Assembly (NCBI RefSeq): GCF_033372575.1
Contig: NZ_CP104094.1
Span: forward strand, 52,987-84,986
Length of the DNA: 32,000 nucleotides
Direction: 5' to 3'
Source: Candidatus Saccharimonadota bacterium
GTDB taxonomy: Bacteria > Bacteroidota > Bacteroidia > Flavobacteriales > Blattabacteriaceae
The position numbers were made by a program, and so were the translations under genes. This document shows, in pieces, positions 10,797 to 32,000 of this stretch. The notes under the pieces are model-generated. The model was not told the DNA's origin. It made no database searches and was given only the letters and a program-made list of their open reading frames with translations. Every line of letters begins with the position of its first letter. The stretch's first letter is position 1.

Positions 10797-11165
10797 TGGA
10801 GTTGGCGGGATTTGAACCCGCGTCCATAATAAAAATATTAAATATTTTTTACATATTTATCTAATTTTAATAAGATTTTTTTTAATAAATTAGCAAATTA
10901 ATAAAAAAAAATCTTCTATTTTATGTTATTAATATAAAATCTAAAATAGAAAAAATGATTTTATATTTTGTAAAAATCTTAATTTATTTAATTTATTAAA
11001 TATTTAATTTAATAAATATCTTGCTCTTAAATCATTTAAGCAGCAAGATTATAATAATTAGTTTTTCCTTGTATTTATTATAATATTTTTTTAAAGTGTA
11101 ATATAAAAAACACTATATGAATATTTTAATATCTTTTAATATGTCAAATCCAATTTTACAACCCC
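10797..11165 (-). ncRNA. ssrA: tmRNA (SsrA), standard one-piece form. Predicted tag is GKTNYYNLAA, encoded at 11036-11068 including the TAA
   Basis: The 5' end is GGGGTTGTAAAATTGGATTTGACAT and the 3' end is GGACGCGGGTTCAAATCCCGCCAACTCCA. The acceptor has a G3:U70 pair (Ala identity). The internal frame reads GGA AAA ACT AAT TAT TAT AAT CTT GCT GCT TAA, and the stop sits in a TCTTGCT/AGCAAGA helix. Confidence 0.9.
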
Positions 11166-12610: not shown

Positions 12611-13510
12611 ATGAATAAATATAATCAAGAGATTATAAAAAATAAAATTTATAATCAAGACAATAAAAATTTAAATAATAGTTTTAATAAACCTTTTAAT
12701 AAAAGAAGTTTTTATAAACCTTTTAATAAAAGAAGTTTTAATAAACCTTTTAATAAAAGAAGTTTTTATAAACCTTTTAATAAAAGAAGTTTTTATAATA
12801 AAGAATATTATGATTATTTAAAGGATAAAGAGGAGGAGATTAAACCAATATATAGTAAAACTTTAAAATCAAGAAAAAAAATATTTTTTTTGGATGTATT
12901 AGATACTATAACAGGGGATTATTTATTATGCCTAACAGAAAGTAAAAAAATGTTATTAAAAGATAATAATAATTTTTTTAAAAAAGAAAAAATTTATATA
13001 TATAAAGAAAATTTAGAATTATTAAAACAACATTTAGATGATATTATAAAATTTATTTATAGTAAAAAAGGTAAAGAAGTTATTTATGATAAAGAAATTT
13101 TAAAAAAAAATATTAAATTATTAGAAGAAAAAGAAAAACTTTTTTATAATAAAAAAAAAGGAGAATTAGAATCAATTTATGATGATGATGAATACTATCA
13201 AGATATTAATCCAGAAATAAATAAAAAATTTTATGATAGTATAAATAAAAGTATAAATAGAGGTAAAAATAAAGGAAAAAATATTAATCAAGATATTAAT
13301 CAAGATATAAAAAAAGATCTTAATAAAGGTATAAATAAAGGGATTAATCAAGATAAAATAAATAAAGATAAAAAAATAATAAAAGATAAAAAAATAAATA
13401 AAGATAATAAAATAATAAAAGATAAAAAAATAAATAAAGATAAAAAAATAAATAAAGATAAAAAAATAATAAAAGATAAAAAAATAATAAAAGATAAAAA
13501 AATAAAATAA
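12611..13510 (+). CDS. DUF3276 / PUR-alpha-like nucleic-acid-binding protein with repeat expansions at both termini
   Basis: The core YSKTLKSRKKIFFLDVLDTITGDYLLCLTESKK...KEKIYIYKENLELLKQHLDDIIKFI matches my recollection of the Bacteroidota DUF3276 pattern (FSK.V.AG.RTYFFDVK.T..GDYYLTITESKK...HKI.LYKEDF.KF). The N-terminus has (KPFNKRSFY)x4 and the C-terminus has (KDKKI[IN])n. Confidence 0.75.
   Translation: MNKYNQEIIKNKIYNQDNKNLNNSFNKPFNKRSFYKPFNKRSFNKPFNKRSFYKPFNKRSFYNKEYYDYLKDKEEEIKPIYSKTLKSRKKIFFLDVLDTITGDYLLCLTESKKMLLKDNNNFFKKEKIYIYKENLELLKQHLDDIIKFIYSKKGKEVIYDKEILKKNIKLLEEKEKLFYNKKKGELESIYDDDEYYQDINPEINKKFYDSINKSINRGKNKGKNINQDINQDIKKDLNKGINKGINQDKINKDKKIIKDKKINKDNKIIKDKKINKDKKINKDKKIIKDKKIIKDKKIK
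12689..12796 (+). repeat. 27-nt tandem repeat x4 (AAACCTTTTAATAAAAGAAGTTTTTAT), in frame
   Basis: Read directly from the sequence. Copy 2 differs by TAT->AAT. Confidence 0.9.
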
Positions 13511-13749
13511 AAGATAAAAAAATAAATAAAGATAATAAAATAATAAAAGATAAAAAAATAAATAAAGATAAAAAAATAAATAAAGATAAAAAAATAATAA
13601 AAGATAAAAAAATAATAAAAGATAAAAAAATAATAAAAGATAAAAAAATAATAAAAGATAAAAAAATAAATAAAGATAAAAAAATAAATAAAGATAAAAA
13701 AATAAATAAAGATAAAAAAATAAATAAAGATAAAAAAATAAATAAAAGA
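13351..13749 (+). repeat. Array of 18-nt tandem repeats (AAAGATAAAAAAATAAAT / AAAGATAAAAAAATAATA, >20 units) with a 128-nt higher-order duplication. It spans the DUF3276 stop codon
   Basis: Read directly from the sequence. The block starting GATAAAAAAATAAATAAAGATAATAAAATAATA at 13385 recurs at 13513, an offset of 128, with ~119 identical nt. Confidence 0.9.
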
Positions 13750-13812
13750 TAAGTAAGAAAAATTTAAAAAATATTACATAAATAAATAATAAATATTTAT
13801 TTATGTAATATT

Positions 13813-15159
13813 ATGGATTTAAAAATTTGTATAGTAGGTAAATCAAATGTAGGTAAATCTACATTATTTAATTTATTAATTAAAAAAAAAAAATCTATAA
13901 TTAATAAGAATGAAAATACAACTAAAAATAGAAATTATGGTATTTTAAAAATAAAAAAAAAAATTTATTATATAATAGATACTGGGGGATATTATGAAGA
14001 ATATAAAAATAATGTTTTAAAAAAAAAAGTTATTGAACAAATATTATATGGTATAAAAGAATCATTATTAATTTTATATGTTATAGATGTAATTAATGGT
14101 ATAACATATTTAGATAAAAAATTATCATTAATTATTCGTAAATATAATAAACCTACATTTTTATTAATTAATAAAATAGATATAAAAAAATATAATTCTA
14201 AAAATAAATATTATGAATATTATAAATTAGGATTTTATAAAATATTTACTATTTCCTGTACACATAATATTGGAATAAAAAAATTATATAAGAATATATA
14301 TAATTTTTTTATTAAAGAAAAAAATAATATTAATAAATATAATAATAATTTTAAAATTTCAGTAGTAGGAAAACCTAATACAGGAAAATCAACATTTATA
14401 AATAATTATTTAAAAGATTATAATAAAAGTATTGTATCTAATATTGAAGGTACAACAATAGATACATTATTTTTTTATTTAAAAAATAATAAAAAAAATT
14501 TTATAATAATAGATACACCAGGAATAATAAAAAAATTTAAATTTAGTAAAAAAATTCAAAATGAATATTTATTAAATACAATTAATATAATAAAGGAATC
14601 AGATATATGTATTTTAATGATAGATAGTAAAATAACAAAAAATGATATATATATATATAATAAAATATTATTATATAAAAAAGGATTAATTATTTTATTT
14701 AATAAAATAGATTTATTTAATAATAAAGAAAAAAAAGAAATTATTTTAAGTATAAAAAATTTAATAAAAAATAATTTTCCATATTTATTAATATCAAATA
14801 AAAATAAATTAAATGAAAATATAATAAATAAAATAAATAATATAATAAATATGATATATAAAAATAGAAATAAAAAAATTTCTACAAGTTTATTAAATAA
14901 TAAATTATTATTAAAAATAAATAAAAAAATAAAAATAAATAATAAAATATTAAAAATAAAATTTTGTTATCAATTAAAAAATAAAAAATTTCCTAGTTTC
15001 GTATTAATATCTAATTTAGAAAAAAATATTAATTTAAATTATAAAAAATATATAGAAAATATTATAATAAAATTATTTGATTTTTATGGTGTACCAATAG
15101 AAATATCATTTAAAAAAAATAAAAATAATGTTAACAGATTCATTAATAAAAGAAAATAA
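13813..15159 (+). CDS. der: Ribosome-assembly GTPase Der (EngA), two tandem G domains
   Basis: 448 aa. Motifs: GKSNVGKST...DTGG...NKID, then GKPNTGKST...DTPG...NKID. Confidence 0.92.
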   Translation: MDLKICIVGKSNVGKSTLFNLLIKKKKSIINKNENTTKNRNYGILKIKKKIYYIIDTGGYYEEYKNNVLKKKVIEQILYGIKESLLILYVIDVINGITYLDKKLSLIIRKYNKPTFLLINKIDIKKYNSKNKYYEYYKLGFYKIFTISCTHNIGIKKLYKNIYNFFIKEKNNINKYNNNFKISVVGKPNTGKSTFINNYLKDYNKSIVSNIEGTTIDTLFFYLKNNKKNFIIIDTPGIIKKFKFSKKIQNEYLLNTINIIKESDICILMIDSKITKNDIYIYNKILLYKKGLIILFNKIDLFNNKEKKEIILSIKNLIKNNFPYLLISNKNKLNENIINKINNIINMIYKNRNKKISTSLLNNKLLLKINKKIKINNKILKIKFCYQLKNKKFPSFVLISNLEKNINLNYKKYIENIIIKLFDFYGVPIEISFKKNKNNVNRFINKRK

Positions 15160-16378: not shown

Positions 16379-16560
16379 TAATTTTTATGAAATATAAAAT
16401 TTTATTATATAAAAAAAAATTAATAATTATATCTTTTATTTATAAGAAAAATTATAATAAAATAATAAAATTTATAAATAATTTTTGTTTTAATTTGTCA
16501 AAAAAATTAAAACAAAATGTTATAATTTTTTTTAATAAAAAAAATATTTAAAATATAAAT

Positions 16561-16872
16561 AAGTTAATAGTTTTATCGCATTAATGAGAATTAATGAGGA
16601 AAGTCCGGACACTAAAGAGAAATACAAAGGATAACATCCTTACATCGAAAGATGATGAATAGTACAACAGAAAGAAAGTATAATATATTAAATATTATAG
16701 TGAAATCATGGAAACTCTGTATAGTGAAATGTTAAATATCCATAGATTGTCTCGATTATTATGGATGGTAAACAGATATGATATATATGGTAACATATAT
16801 ACTAGATAAATGATAAAAATATATTATTTAAAATAAAATAATATATACAGAATCCGGCTTATATATTAACTT
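16561..16872 (+). ncRNA. rnpB: RNase P RNA (bacterial type A, reduced)
   Basis: Conserved blocks GAGGAAAGTCCGGAC (16595-16610 region) and ACAGAATCCGGCTTA near the 3' end. The terminal P1 pairing is AAGTTAATA (16561-16569) with TATTAACTT (16864-16872). It forms a GC-richer island. Confidence 0.88.
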
Positions 16873-16888
16873 AAATAATAAAAAAAAA

Positions 16889-17773
16889 ATGCATATTCAT
16901 AATATGTTAATAAAAAAAATATTAGAAATATTAAAAAAAAATAAAGAAGAAAAAAAAATAAAAGAAGAAATAAAAAAAAAGATTAATTTAAAAAAAATAA
17001 ATAGAAAAAAAATAATAAAAATAAAAAATAAAATAATAGAAATAAAAGAAAAAAAAATTTATAAAAATTATAAAAAAAAAGAAGGAAAATTAGTACGTTT
17101 AAAAGTAATAAATGTATATAATAATAAATTAATATTAACAGATAAAAATAATAATGAATTAATATTTAATAAAGATAATAATTATGATAGACAATATAAA
17201 GAGATAAAAGATATAAAAGATAAAGATATAAAAGAAAATAATTTTTTTAAAAAAAATAATTACTATTATTTTTTAGTAGAAAAAATATTTTTAAATAAAA
17301 ATAAAAAAAAAATAATAATCTTAAAAAGAAATAATAGTTTATTTGTAAAACTATTATTTAAAAAAGAAATATTAGAAATTAAAGATAATATAGTAAAAAT
17401 AAAAAAAATAGTAAGAATATCAGGTATAAAAACTATTATAGTAGTTTATTCAAAAAATAAAAATATAAATGCTGTAGGATGTTGTATAGGAATAAAAAAT
17501 ATAAGATTAAATAATATAAAAAAAGAATTAAATAATGAAATAATTGAAATATATAAATATAATAGTAATAAATTAGAATATATTAATGAGATATTTAAAA
17601 GAAAAAATATAAAAAAAATAGAAATATTTAAAAAATTAATAATATTATATTTTAATAAAGAAATAATAGGTAAAATAATAGGGAAAAAAGGTTATAATAT
17701 AAAATTATATTCATTATTATTAATGAAAAAAATAATAGTAAAGGAATATGAAGAAAGTAATAGAATTATATAA
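16889..17773 (+). CDS. nusA: Transcription elongation factor NusA (shortened, 294 aa)
   Basis: The S1-like segment is EGKLVRLKVINV. The KH regions are INAVGCCIGIKNIRLNNIKKELNNEIIEIYKYN and GKIIGKKGYNIKL. It lies directly upstream of infB, as in the canonical nusA-infB arrangement. Confidence 0.8.
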   Translation: MHIHNMLIKKILEILKKNKEEKKIKEEIKKKINLKKINRKKIIKIKNKIIEIKEKKIYKNYKKKEGKLVRLKVINVYNNKLILTDKNNNELIFNKDNNYDRQYKEIKDIKDKDIKENNFFKKNNYYYFLVEKIFLNKNKKKIIILKRNNSLFVKLLFKKEILEIKDNIVKIKKIVRISGIKTIIVVYSKNKNINAVGCCIGIKNIRLNNIKKELNNEIIEIYKYNSNKLEYINEIFKRKNIKKIEIFKKLIILYFNKEIIGKIIGKKGYNIKLYSLLLMKKIIVKEYEESNRII

Positions 17774-31807: not shown

Positions 31808-31924
31808 TTGGATTTGGATATTTAAATAAAAATATATATAATATTAATAAGAATAAATTTGTTAATTGAAAATTAATAAGTTAAAAATAAAATATTAGAA
31901 ATTTTATTATTTCTAATATTTAAT

Positions 31925-32000
31925 TATAAAGAGTTTGATCCTGGCTCAGGATAAACGCTAGCGATTAGCTTTACACATGCAAGTCGAGGGGTAATATAGA
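31925..32000 (+). rRNA. rrs: 16S rRNA, 5' end (partial, continues past the window)
   Basis: AAAGAGTTTGATCCTGGCTCAGGATAAACGCTAGCGATTAGCTTTACACATGCAAGTCGAGGGG. This contains the universal 27F region plus a Bacteroidota-type GAT.AACGCTAGCG. The exact 5' end is uncertain by a few nt. Confidence 0.9.

What the first reader, a model, noticed from the sequence alone, without database searches (positions are those of the whole stretch)
13351..13752. ~400-nt Lys-rich 18-nt repeat array at the 3' end of the DUF3276 gene, with a 128-nt duplication that shifts frame and strands ~80 repeat codons after the stop
The ORF ends ...KDKKIIKDKKIIKDKKIK-TAA at 13508-13510, but the same AAAGATAAAAAAATAA(A/T)(T/A) repeat continues to ~13749. 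At 13501-13512 one unit reads ATAAAATAAAAGAT instead of the 12-nt ATAATAAAAGAT, which adds 2 nt. The block beginning at 13385, marked by the variant unit GATAATAAAATAATA (DNKII), recurs at 13513. That is a period of 128 nt, not a multiple of 3. In the shifted frame the array stays open as (KDKKI[IN])n to a TAA at 13750-13752. So a recent 128-nt duplication, or replication slippage, truncated a tail that could otherwise be ~80 aa longer. Changes in unit number could toggle the tail length. A PUR-like nucleic-acid-binding core fused to a histone-H1-like Lys-rich repeat tail resembles the repeat-variable nucleoid proteins of other obligate intracellular bacteria, such as Chlamydia Hc2. It is a rare case of sequence expansion in a genome under extreme reduction.
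Basis: partly seen in the sequence, partly recalled or inferred. Interest (0 to 1): 0.65.

Follow-up and report, generated by a model that had tools for sequence, protein, structure and literature searches.

The report
Repeat-expanded lysine tail on PUR protein
A small nucleic-acid-binding protein of an extremely AT-rich beetle endosymbiont carries a long lysine-rich tail built from an 18-base tandem repeat. A perfect 128-base duplication has knocked the far end of that tail out of frame, and related symbionts show the same fast-changing repeat tails on this gene.

Summary
ORF 12611-13510 (299 aa) is a DUF3276/PUR-repeat protein. An 18-nt array (13355-13752, 21.9 copies) encodes (I[I/N]KDKK)n and is by far the strongest tandem repeat in the window. 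A perfect abutting 128-nt duplication (13378-13505 = 13506-13633, 128/128) makes a 20-nt junction unit and a TAA at 13508-13510. It leaves 13 units (~80 codons) open only in the -1 frame, down to TAA 13750-13752. Deleting one copy restores a 337-aa ORF that ends 17 nt before an intergenic hairpin also found in three relatives.

The window comes from a Candidatus Shikimatogenerans-clade Bacteroidota endosymbiont (same gene order; Der 58-61% identical). Fourteen orthologues there all carry different tails of 110-237 aa total length, mostly lysine-rich, many built from unrelated 3n-period repeats. In three assemblies the array causes a gap or a contig end. Free-living homologues instead have short acidic tails.

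So this is a clade-wide hotspot for in-frame minisatellites in a disordered tail, not a one-off. I could not tell whether the frameshifting duplication is fixed, heteroplasmic or an assembly artefact. The Hc2 comparison is an analogy only. In-register unit gains or losses cannot toggle the frame.

The parts
12611..13510 (+). Present ORF of the DUF3276 / PUR-repeat protein (299 aa)
   Evidence: ORF list; Pfam PF11680 E 4.5e-22; same nusB(-)/PUR/der/serS gene order as Ca. Shikimatogenerans bostrichidophilus.
12680..12798 (+). N-terminal in-frame 27-nt repeat, 4.4 copies, 96% matches, encoding (SF[Y/N]KPFNKR)n. It is part of a ~69-aa basic extension (net +13) absent from all relatives.
   Evidence: TRF; alignments A1 and A3; charge.
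12833..13147 (+). PUR-repeat core (residues 75-179): four beta strands plus a helix
   Evidence: Pfam; profile hit to Borrelia Pur-alpha 3NM7/3N8B, E 7e-13; AF2 block-mean pLDDT 85-96 over residues 81-150; Foldseek 3n8b TM(target) 0.83, rmsd 1.8 A.
13197..13362 (+). Older, decayed in-frame repeats (periods 24 and 90 nt, 77-79% matches) encoding INQD/INKG-type units just upstream of the young array
   Evidence: TRF.
13355..13752 (+). 18-nt minisatellite, 21.9 copies, encoding (I[I/N]KDKK)n; about 5.6% GC
   Evidence: TRF score 629, the top array of the window; unit-by-unit parse.
13378..13505 (+). Copy 1 of the perfect 128-nt tandem duplication (7.1 units)
   Evidence: 128/128 identity at offset 128.
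13506..13633 (+). Copy 2 of the 128-nt duplication; the junction lies between 13505 and 13506
   Evidence: Deleting either copy gives an in-frame 1014-nt ORF (337 aa).
13502..13521 (+). 20-nt junction unit ATAAAATAAAAGATAAAAAA, containing the present stop TAA at 13508-13510
13511..13749 (+). Stranded repeat codons (13 units, ~80 codons), open only in the -1 frame, with no ATG/GTG/TTG start of their own
   Evidence: Three-frame translation; no ORF is listed there.
13750..13752 (+). Inferred ancestral stop codon (TAA) of the gene
   Evidence: It ends the -1-frame run. It lies 17 nt before the hairpin; a hairpin also follows the gene's stop in three relatives, 15 to about 69 nt downstream.
13770..13812 (+). 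Perfect 19-bp hairpin. An outer 7-bp stem (13760-13766 with 13814-13820) overlaps the der ATG.
   Evidence: RNA fold -18.8 kcal/mol, z -7.6, 0 of 200 shuffles fold as well.
13813..15159 (+). der (EngA GTPase), the downstream neighbour that fixes the end of the intergenic space
   Evidence: Pfam MMR_HSR1 x2 plus KH_dom-like.

Best explanation
The window comes from a Candidatus Shikimatogenerans-clade Bacteroidota beetle endosymbiont. Gene 12611-13510 encodes a single-PUR-repeat (DUF3276) protein. By homology to Borrelia and eukaryotic Pur-alpha, the core should dimerise and bind single-stranded DNA or RNA.

In this clade the disordered C-terminal tail has lost the short acidic form seen in free-living Flavobacteriia. 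It has become a hotspot where replication slippage, in an A-rich sequence almost devoid of G and C, keeps creating and replacing in-frame minisatellites (all periods are multiples of 3) that encode lysine-rich peptides.

In this genome the current array is an 18-nt unit encoding I[I/N]KDKK. The ancestral gene had 15 units and ended at TAA 13750-13752, just before the intergenic hairpin. A very recent out-of-register tandem duplication of 128 nt (7 units plus 2 nt) created a junction unit containing TAA at 13508. The gene as assembled therefore makes a 299-aa protein with a 9-unit tail, and 13 units are stranded as untranslated sequence.

The core is untouched, so this is a change in tail length, not gene loss. 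It can be reversed by loss of the duplication.

Inferred, not shown: the basic tail (about +20 net charge; the N-terminal extension adds +13) adds non-specific electrostatic affinity for nucleic acid. It is tolerated, and perhaps mildly favoured, rather than precisely selected.
For: Anatomy:
- Perfect 128/128 abutting duplication. One event explains the odd 20-nt unit, the stop and the frame change.
- Deleting one copy gives a clean 337-aa ORF.
- Hairpin 17 nt after the second stop. A hairpin also follows the orthologous stop in L001, L082 and L084, 15 to about 69 nt downstream.
- With the array counted as coding, the intergenic space would be 60 nt, against 67 nt in L001.

Against a simple base-calling error:
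- 149 homopolymers of 8 nt or more lie inside 25 long ORFs that are all intact.
- The extra 2 nt sit in an A2-to-A4 context, not in a long run.

Clade-wide hotspot:
- 14 orthologues of 110-237 aa. Tails include tandem units of 12, 18, 15, 54, 63, 42 and 36 nt, all multiples of 3.
- Pairs with 85-98% identical cores have tails only 11-49% identical, with tail lengths differing by up to 85 aa.

Charge reversal:
- 228 other homologues have a median tail of 32.5 aa and a median charge of -4. The Shikimatogenerans tails run from -3 to +20, ten of the twelve scored being positive. The window tail is 136 aa at +20.

PUR core.

Clade assignment: gene order, and Der 58-61% identical, the same depth as among the isolates themselves.
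Against: - No reads and no independent assembly of this organism could be found. Fixation of the duplication is therefore unverified.
- Homologous arrays coincide with 100-N gaps or a contig end in 3 of 14 related assemblies, so array structure in this group is error-prone.
- The stranded units show no decay at all. That fits a very recent event, but equally fits an artefact or a polymorphism.
- The functional role of the tail is pure inference. A lysine-rich composition is also what extreme AT bias yields by default.
- AF2 predicts the tail as one long helix at only moderate confidence (block-mean pLDDT 73-82), which is not informative for charged repeats.
Confidence: 0.55

Rival explanations
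1. The duplication is not fixed. It is either an assembly artefact (a repeat loop traversed once too often) or one allele in a mixed symbiont population. The real or predominant gene would be the in-frame 337-aa form ending at 13752.
For: - Deleting exactly one copy restores the frame.
- There is zero divergence between the copies and zero decay in the stranded units.
- Related assemblies fail at this very array: a contig end in L081 and 100-N gaps in L082 and L083.
- Most published Shikimatogenerans genomes are short-read or hybrid SPAdes/MaSuRCA assemblies, and AT-rich repeats at contig ends were reported as a problem (PMC8113238, PMC10284843).
Against: - The junction sequence is novel and must have been present in reads to be assembled.
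- To my knowledge, assemblers more often collapse tandem repeats than expand them.
- The period (128) does not match simple concatenation of overlapping contig ends. By my recollection of the defaults, it also does not match SPAdes k-mer overlaps, which are odd numbers up to 127.
- The rest of the window looks base-accurate.
Confidence: 0.27
2. A real in-register 126-nt (7-unit) duplication plus a 2-nt sequencing or polishing error at 13504-13507. The true gene would be 379 aa with an uninterrupted 22-unit tail.
For: - Removing 2 nt gives a clean 1140-nt ORF.
- If I recall the methods literature correctly, polishing is unreliable inside repeats.
Against: - It needs two events, with the error falling in the roughly 30-nt window where the duplication junction could lie.
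- The change is A2 to A4, or two separate +1 changes in A3 runs. This is not the typical long-homopolymer error.
- 149 runs of 8 nt or more elsewhere left their ORFs intact.
Confidence: 0.08
3. The frameshift is bypassed during expression, so both a short and a long-tailed protein are made from one gene. This could happen by -1 ribosomal slippage of tRNA-Lys on A AAA UAA (13504-13510) or on the A7 run (13496-13502), or by transcriptional slippage that adds one A.
For: - The two frames overlap for only 10 nt (13498-13507). That stretch consists of an A7 run and an A4 run directly before the stop, and AAA re-pairs perfectly after a -1 shift.
- From my own knowledge, rescue of frameshifted genes at poly(A) tracts is known in Buchnera and Blochmannia. 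The review of recoding found (PMC5009743) was listed but not read.
Against: - There is no canonical X XXY YYZ heptamer in register.
- There is no downstream RNA structure at all (minimum free energy 0 kcal/mol).
- By my recollection of the slippage literature, A7 is shorter than the tracts of about 9 or more where transcriptional slippage is efficient.
- Every one of the 22 units has the same A7 run, and slippage in any unit before 13498 would hit a stop within one unit. Nothing marks this site as special.
- A perfect, very recent duplication is not what a maintained recoding signal looks like.
Confidence: 0.05
4. The tail has no function. It is neutral slippage debris in a dispensable disordered region, and tail length, including this truncation, is invisible to selection.
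For: - Tails differ completely between isolates whose cores are 85-98% identical. One orthologue has almost no tail (P0050, 110 aa).
- Units use a single codon per residue, which indicates recent expansion rather than conservation.
- Lys, Asn and Ile are the default products of DNA at roughly 5-15% GC.
Against: - All arrays have periods that are multiples of 3, although arrays with other periods would end the ORF and escape notice.
- Ten of the twelve tails scored became net basic while free-living ones are acidic. Each unit keeps its single G, as a GAT or GAA acidic codon.
- The gene is retained, with an intact core, in genomes of about 170-200 kb.
Confidence: 0.35

Closest known systems
Bacterial single-repeat PUR proteins (Pfam DUF3276, PF11680; Borrelia burgdorferi Pur-alpha, PDB 3N8B/3NM7)
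   Same: The core sequence and fold are the same. Pfam gives 79 bits. The profile hit to 3NM7 has E 7e-13. The predicted four-strands-plus-helix fold superposes on 3N8B at TM 0.83. NCBI names the orthologues 'PUR family DNA/RNA-binding protein'.
   Different: - Typical members are 105-140 aa with a short acidic tail, often ending in a hydrophobic-acidic tip such as F-D-D-I (96 of 228).
- This protein is 299 aa (337-379 aa if repaired), with basic tandem-repeat extensions at both ends and no terminal tip.
- Several nearly invariant core residues are replaced: RRTYFFDV becomes KKIFFLDV, HKI becomes EKI, and KEDF becomes KENL.
Chlamydia trachomatis Hc2 (hctB), a histone-H1-like protein with variable lysine-rich repeats
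   Same: Both are lysine-rich, intragenic, tandemly repeated modules in a nucleic-acid-binding protein of an obligate intracellular bacterium. Size variation comes from repeat number: Hc2 ranges over 165-237 aa through differing numbers of lysine-rich pentamers or repeat elements (abstract of PMC2848022, listed). Here tails vary over a similar range between host lineages.
   Different: - There is no sequence homology. Pfam finds only DUF3276.
- Here the repeats are an appendage on a folded PUR domain, and they contain 26% Ile and 16% Asp.
- DNA compaction is untested.
- The variation shown here is between species, not within a population.
Low-complexity and minisatellite expansions in extremely AT-rich genomes, and frameshifts at A-tracts in insect endosymbionts (Buchnera, Blochmannia)
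   Same: Slippage-prone A-rich sequence produces length changes and frameshifts in coding regions of repair-poor endosymbionts (my own knowledge; PMC3017870 and PMC5009743 were listed but not read).
   Different: The frameshift here is not a homopolymer length change. It is a 128-nt out-of-register tandem duplication inside an 18-nt minisatellite. The expansion recurs at the same gene across a whole clade.

Membership tests
PUR / DUF3276 (PF11680) | Sequence match to the family HMM above the curated threshold | tested here: met
   79 bits against a 23.1 cut-off, residues 75-179. There were 425 homologues at E<=1e-3 in the representative library.
PUR / DUF3276 (PF11680) | PUR-repeat fold: four beta strands followed by a helix | tested here: met
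   AF2 gives strands 81-131 and helix 132-153, with block-mean pLDDT 85-96 over residues 81-150. Foldseek top hits are Borrelia Pur-alpha 3n8b/3nm7 (TM target 0.72-0.83, rmsd 1.8-2.3 A), followed by Drosophila and human PURA and PC4.
PUR / DUF3276 (PF11680) | Family-invariant core residues retained | tested here: inconclusive
   All 15 invariant columns of A4 are kept (I80, S82, D95, D103, Y104, T109, E110, S111, K112, K113, K125, K127, Y131, K132, K153). Several nearly invariant positions (90% or more) are replaced: R90, Y92, A101, H126, D134 and F135.
PUR / DUF3276 (PF11680) | Dimerisation of the single repeat and binding of single-stranded nucleic acid | not testable with these tools
   Inferred only from homology to 3N8B and PURA.
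PUR / DUF3276 (PF11680) | Short acidic C-terminal tail with a hydrophobic-acidic tip (typical of free-living members, not formally defining) | tested here: not met
   The window tail is 136 aa with net charge +20 and ends in KDKKIK. A possible internal remnant is SIYDDDEYYQDI.
Histone-H1-like / Hc2-type lysine-rich repeat nucleoid proteins | Lysine-rich tandem peptide repeats that make up a large part of the protein | tested here: met
   The translated array is 48% Lys, with 9 units translated and 13 more stranded.
Histone-H1-like / Hc2-type lysine-rich repeat nucleoid proteins | Sequence homology to H1/Hc1/Hc2 families | tested here: not met
   The Pfam scan of the whole protein returns DUF3276 only. 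NCBIfam returns nothing. No direct alignment to Hc2 was made.
Histone-H1-like / Hc2-type lysine-rich repeat nucleoid proteins | Repeat-number polymorphism between strains | tested here: inconclusive
   Large tail differences exist between host-specific lineages. Within-population variation could not be tested because no reads were available.
Histone-H1-like / Hc2-type lysine-rich repeat nucleoid proteins | DNA condensation activity | not testable with these tools
   Needs experiment.
Phase-variable contingency locus (repeat-number frame switching) | A repeat unit whose gain or loss changes the reading frame (unit length not a multiple of 3, or a homopolymer) | tested here: not met
   The unit is 18 nt, and every array in the relatives also has a period that is a multiple of 3. 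Only the 128-nt higher-order duplication shifts the frame.
Programmed -1 frameshift / transcriptional-slippage rescue | A slippery heptamer in register plus a downstream stimulatory structure, or a long (about 9 or more) A/T tract | tested here: not met
   The frame-overlap window 13498-13507 holds only A7 and A4 runs. The downstream RNA has no structure (0 kcal/mol).

The most novel reading that the evidence does not exclude
In the Shikimatogenerans clade, a PUR-type single-strand binder may have been converted into a histone-like, strongly basic nucleoid or RNA-coating protein. The conversion would be the replacement of its acidic tail by selected, rapidly turning-over lysine-rich repeat modules. 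Tail length would be tuned within host populations by reversible tandem duplication and loss, the 128-nt duplication here being one such switch caught in the act, possibly heteroplasmic. This would be a gain-of-sequence innovation in genomes of about 170-200 kb.
Probability: 0.15. Interest if true: 0.65.

Novelty: new variant of a known kind. Interest (0 to 1): 0.45.

Why it matters
Tiny endosymbiont genomes are generally understood (my own knowledge) to shrink, and their proteins to shorten. Here one retained nucleic-acid-binding protein has grown two- to three-fold, independently and repeatedly, across a clade of the smallest known Bacteroidota genomes, and its tail has switched from acidic to strongly basic.

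If the tail is functional, it points to a substitute chromatin or RNA-chaperone protein in genomes that have lost most such factors. If it is neutral, it is a clean natural example of minisatellite birth, decay and out-of-register duplication in a repair-poor genome.

There is also a practical warning. This locus breaks or distorts assemblies: three related assemblies have gaps or a contig end in it. A frameshift or premature stop seen inside such an array should not be taken at face value without spanning reads.

Tried and rejected
- Word-indexed homologue search with the core alone found nothing. The exhaustive HMMER scan and a profile search were needed instead.
- Exact-protein look-ups for the PUR protein and for Der found no public contig.
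- An exact 32-mer from the gene is absent from JGI metagenomes.
- The genome itself was not among the 80 loci kept from the capped GTDB-representative scan. No independent assembly was therefore available to test the duplication.
- NCBIfam has no model hit.
- The consensus terminator scan found nothing because it requires G-C pairs. The hairpin was found by folding instead.
- I considered the stranded array as a separate gene and rejected it, because it has no start codon and no ORF is listed there.
- I rejected simple unit-number phase variation because the unit is 18 nt.
- I rejected a programmed frameshift as unlikely because there is no register-correct heptamer and no downstream structure.
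- I considered general homopolymer miscalling and judged it unlikely.
- Literature searches found no paper that discusses DUF3276 in these symbionts and no mention of tandem repeats in the papers read.
Full report
**1. What is in the sequence**

- The region lies in a stretch of about 10% GC, in a window that averages 13.9% GC.
- ORF 12611-13510 (+, 299 aa) ends ...KDKKIIKDKKIIKDKKIK-TAA.
- From 13358 the DNA is a head-to-tail series of 18-nt units. Each is ATAATAAAAGATAAAAAA (IIKDKK) or ATAAATAAAGATAAAAAA (INKDKK). A rare variant, GATAAT (DNK), occurs twice.
- TRF reports 13355-13752, period 18, 21.9 copies, 92% matches, score 629. The next best array in the whole window scores 224 and is in the same gene.
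- The unit at 13502 is 20 nt (ATAAAATAAAAGATAAAAAA) and contains the stop at 13508-13510.
- Beyond it, 13 further units are open only in the +2 (= -1) frame, from 13498 to TAA 13750-13752.
- That frame has no start codon, and no ORF is listed there.
- The open frame is an automatic property of the repeated unit. It is not independent evidence of selection.

**2. The duplication**

At offset 128 the sequence matches itself exactly for 128 nt. Positions 13378-13505 equal 13506-13633, and the two copies abut. Both carry the DNK marker and the same order of II and IN units, so this is a true higher-order duplication and not a chance recurrence.

Because 128 = 7 x 18 + 2, the junction (ATAA|AATAAAAGAT) yields the 20-nt unit, the TAA and the frame change in one event.

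- Deleting one copy gives a 1014-nt ORF (337 aa, 15 units) that ends at 13752.
- Deleting only 2 nt gives 1140 nt (379 aa, 22 units).

Relative to the inferred ancestor the present protein has lost 38 aa of tail. The core is untouched.

**3. Where the gene used to end**

A perfect 19-bp hairpin (13770-13812; -18.8 kcal/mol; z = -7.6) lies 17 nt after the second stop and abuts the der ATG. Hairpins also follow the stop of the orthologous gene in L001, L082 and L084, at 15 to about 69 nt.

With the array counted as coding, the spacer to der is 60 nt, against 67 nt in L001. As assembled it is 302 nt. That makes it the only non-coding stretch of 300 nt or more in the window interior that is not explained by an RNA gene.

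**4. Identity of the gene and the organism**

- Pfam gives DUF3276 (79 bits).
- A profile of the clade hits Borrelia burgdorferi Pur-alpha (3NM7/3N8B, E about 1e-12) and, more weakly, human and fly PURA.
- AF2 with a 54-sequence alignment gives four strands plus a helix at block-mean pLDDT 85-96. Foldseek returns 3n8b at TM 0.83.
- The gene order rluB-like / nusB(-) / PUR / der / serS matches Ca. Shikimatogenerans bostrichidophilus BCAP and LCAV1.
- Der is 58-61% identical to three isolates, which are themselves 55-69% identical to one another.
- The window is therefore a Shikimatogenerans-clade genome, but not one I could find in any collection.
- The neighbouring genes are all RNA or translation housekeeping: obg, ybeY, mnmG, rlu, nusB, der, serS, rnpB, nusA, infB, RNase E/G and mnmE.

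**5. The tail is a clade-wide hotspot**

Fourteen orthologues range from 110 to 237 aa. Several tails consist of quite different tandem repeats:

| Orthologue | Repeat unit | Period |
|---|---|---|
| L001 | KKIE x5 | 12 nt |
| L002 | KKNNTD x3 | 18 nt |
| L081 / P0154 | KKKID x5+ | 15 nt |
| L082 / P0155 | 18-aa unit | 54 nt |
| L083 / P0030 | 21-aa unit | 63 nt |
| L084 / P0158 | 14-aa unit x6 | 42 nt |
| P0159 | 12-aa unit x3 | 36 nt |

- All periods are multiples of 3.
- Pairs whose cores are 85-98% identical have tails only 11-49% identical, with tail lengths differing by up to 85 aa.
- In L081 the contig ends inside the array. In L082 and L083 a 100-N gap sits inside it, and the repeat resumes on the far side.
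- Among 228 other homologues the median tail is 32.5 aa with net charge -4, and 96 end in a hydrophobic-acidic tip. Blattabacterium keeps this tip, as NFEDV.
- The twelve Shikimatogenerans tails scored run from -3 to +20 net charge, ten of them positive, and none has the tip. The window tail is 136 aa at +20, plus a unique N-terminal extension at +13 that contains a 27-nt x4.4 repeat.
- Upstream of the young 18-nt array lie decayed repeats of periods 24 and 90 nt. This suggests successive rounds of array birth and decay.

**6. Real or artefact**

Against a base-calling error:
- 149 homopolymers of 8 nt or more sit inside 25 long ORFs that are all intact.
- The extra bases are not in a long run.

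Against a spurious join:
- The junction is a novel sequence that must have been present in reads.
- The period of 128 does not fit concatenated overlapping contig ends.

For caution:
- The two copies are identical and the stranded units are undecayed.
- Related assemblies fail at this locus.
- The published genomes of this group are short-read or hybrid assemblies in which AT-rich repeats caused breaks.

My estimates are about 0.55 for a real and predominant duplication, about 0.27 for an artefact or heteroplasmy, and about 0.08 for a 2-nt error.

**7. Expression bypass**

The two frames overlap for only 10 nt (13498-13507), made of an A7 run and an A4 run before the stop, so tRNA-Lys could re-pair after a -1 slip. 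However:
- there is no register-correct heptamer;
- there is no downstream structure (0 kcal/mol);
- every unit has the same A7 run.

I rate designed recoding at about 0.05.

**8. Function**

Shown: an intact PUR core, and a very basic repeat tail that is predicted helical or disordered.

Inferred: the tail adds non-specific electrostatic affinity for nucleic acid, like the H1, Hc2 and HU tails. The analogy with Hc2, whose length variation comes from lysine-rich repeats (abstract of PMC2848022, listed), is functional only. There is no homology, and the composition differs (26% Ile, 16% Asp).

A neutral-debris reading remains quite possible, at about 0.35. That figure concerns whether the tail functions at all, a separate question from the real-or-artefact estimates in section 6, so it is not meant to sum with them.

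**9. Verdict**

- The duplication and truncation reading is supported at the sequence level, but unverified at the level of reads.
- 'Unit number toggles length' is incorrect.
- 'Rare expansion' understates a clade-wide pattern that I could not find described in the literature searched.
- It is a new variant of known phenomena: intragenic VNTRs in basic nucleic-acid-binding proteins, and slippage in AT-rich endosymbionts.
- Interest is moderate.

Noticed in passing
window 12611-12817 (repeat 12680-12798): The gene has a ~69-aa N-terminal extension, absent from all 14 Shikimatogenerans orthologues and from free-living homologues. It is built around a 27-nt x4.4 in-frame repeat encoding SF(Y/N)KPFNKR and has net charge +13. 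No alternative start codon lies near the ancestral start position.
   Followed up: partly
window 13166-13201 (residues ~186-197); proteins P0010, P0011, P0022; L059 3977-4387: Free-living DUF3276 proteins, and Blattabacterium, often end in a conserved hydrophobic-acidic tip (F-x-D/E-V-x-F-D/E-D/E-I; 96 of 228). It is reminiscent of the SSB C-terminal tip. In the window a possible remnant (SIYDDDEYYQDI) is internal and is followed by about 100 aa. This suggests the ORF was extended past its ancestral C-terminus.
   Followed up: partly
window 13760-13820: A perfect 19-bp A/T-only hairpin lies directly before der. An outer 7-bp stem pairs across the der ATG. Analogous hairpins, with a GCGTA core, lie between the PUR gene and der in L001, L082 and L084. 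This may be a terminator or a control element for der translation.
   Followed up: partly
L081 2909-2995; L082 2920-3019; L083 3034-3129: In three public Shikimatogenerans assemblies (JAMYFC010000009.1, CP099828.1, JAMYEX010000002.1) the PUR-gene repeat array coincides with a contig end or a 100-N gap. NCBI labels those proteins 'partial'. The true arrays there are longer than assembled.
   Followed up: yes
L083 3274-4860: In draft JAMYEX010000002.1 the der gene downstream of the PUR gene is split into short pieces (117 aa, 102 aa and so on). This is either pseudogenisation or poor consensus quality in that assembly.
   Followed up: no
window 16889-17773: The nusA-like ORF is only 294 aa. Its only Pfam hit is the KH_5 domain, and it has a lysine-rich, low-complexity N-terminal part overlapping A-rich repeats at 16908-17083.
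   Followed up: no
window whole (25 ORFs of 100 aa or more): 149 A/T homopolymers of 8 nt or more (56 of 10 or more, 20 of 12 or more) lie inside long ORFs that all remain open. This implies accurate base-calling, and it means many slippage-prone tracts sit inside working genes.
   Followed up: yes
window 12830-12838: GAGGAGGAG (three GAG Glu codons) sits in a gene of about 10% GC, just before the conserved core begins. The sequence resembles a Shine-Dalgarno motif, but no start codon follows, and as far as I know Bacteroidota rarely use such motifs.
   Followed up: no
window 10797-11165, 16560-16877, 31923-32000: The window also holds a tmRNA (tag GKTNYYNLAA), RNase P RNA class A, and the first 78 nt of a 16S rRNA gene. 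Nine tRNA and tmRNA genes were found in all.
   Followed up: no
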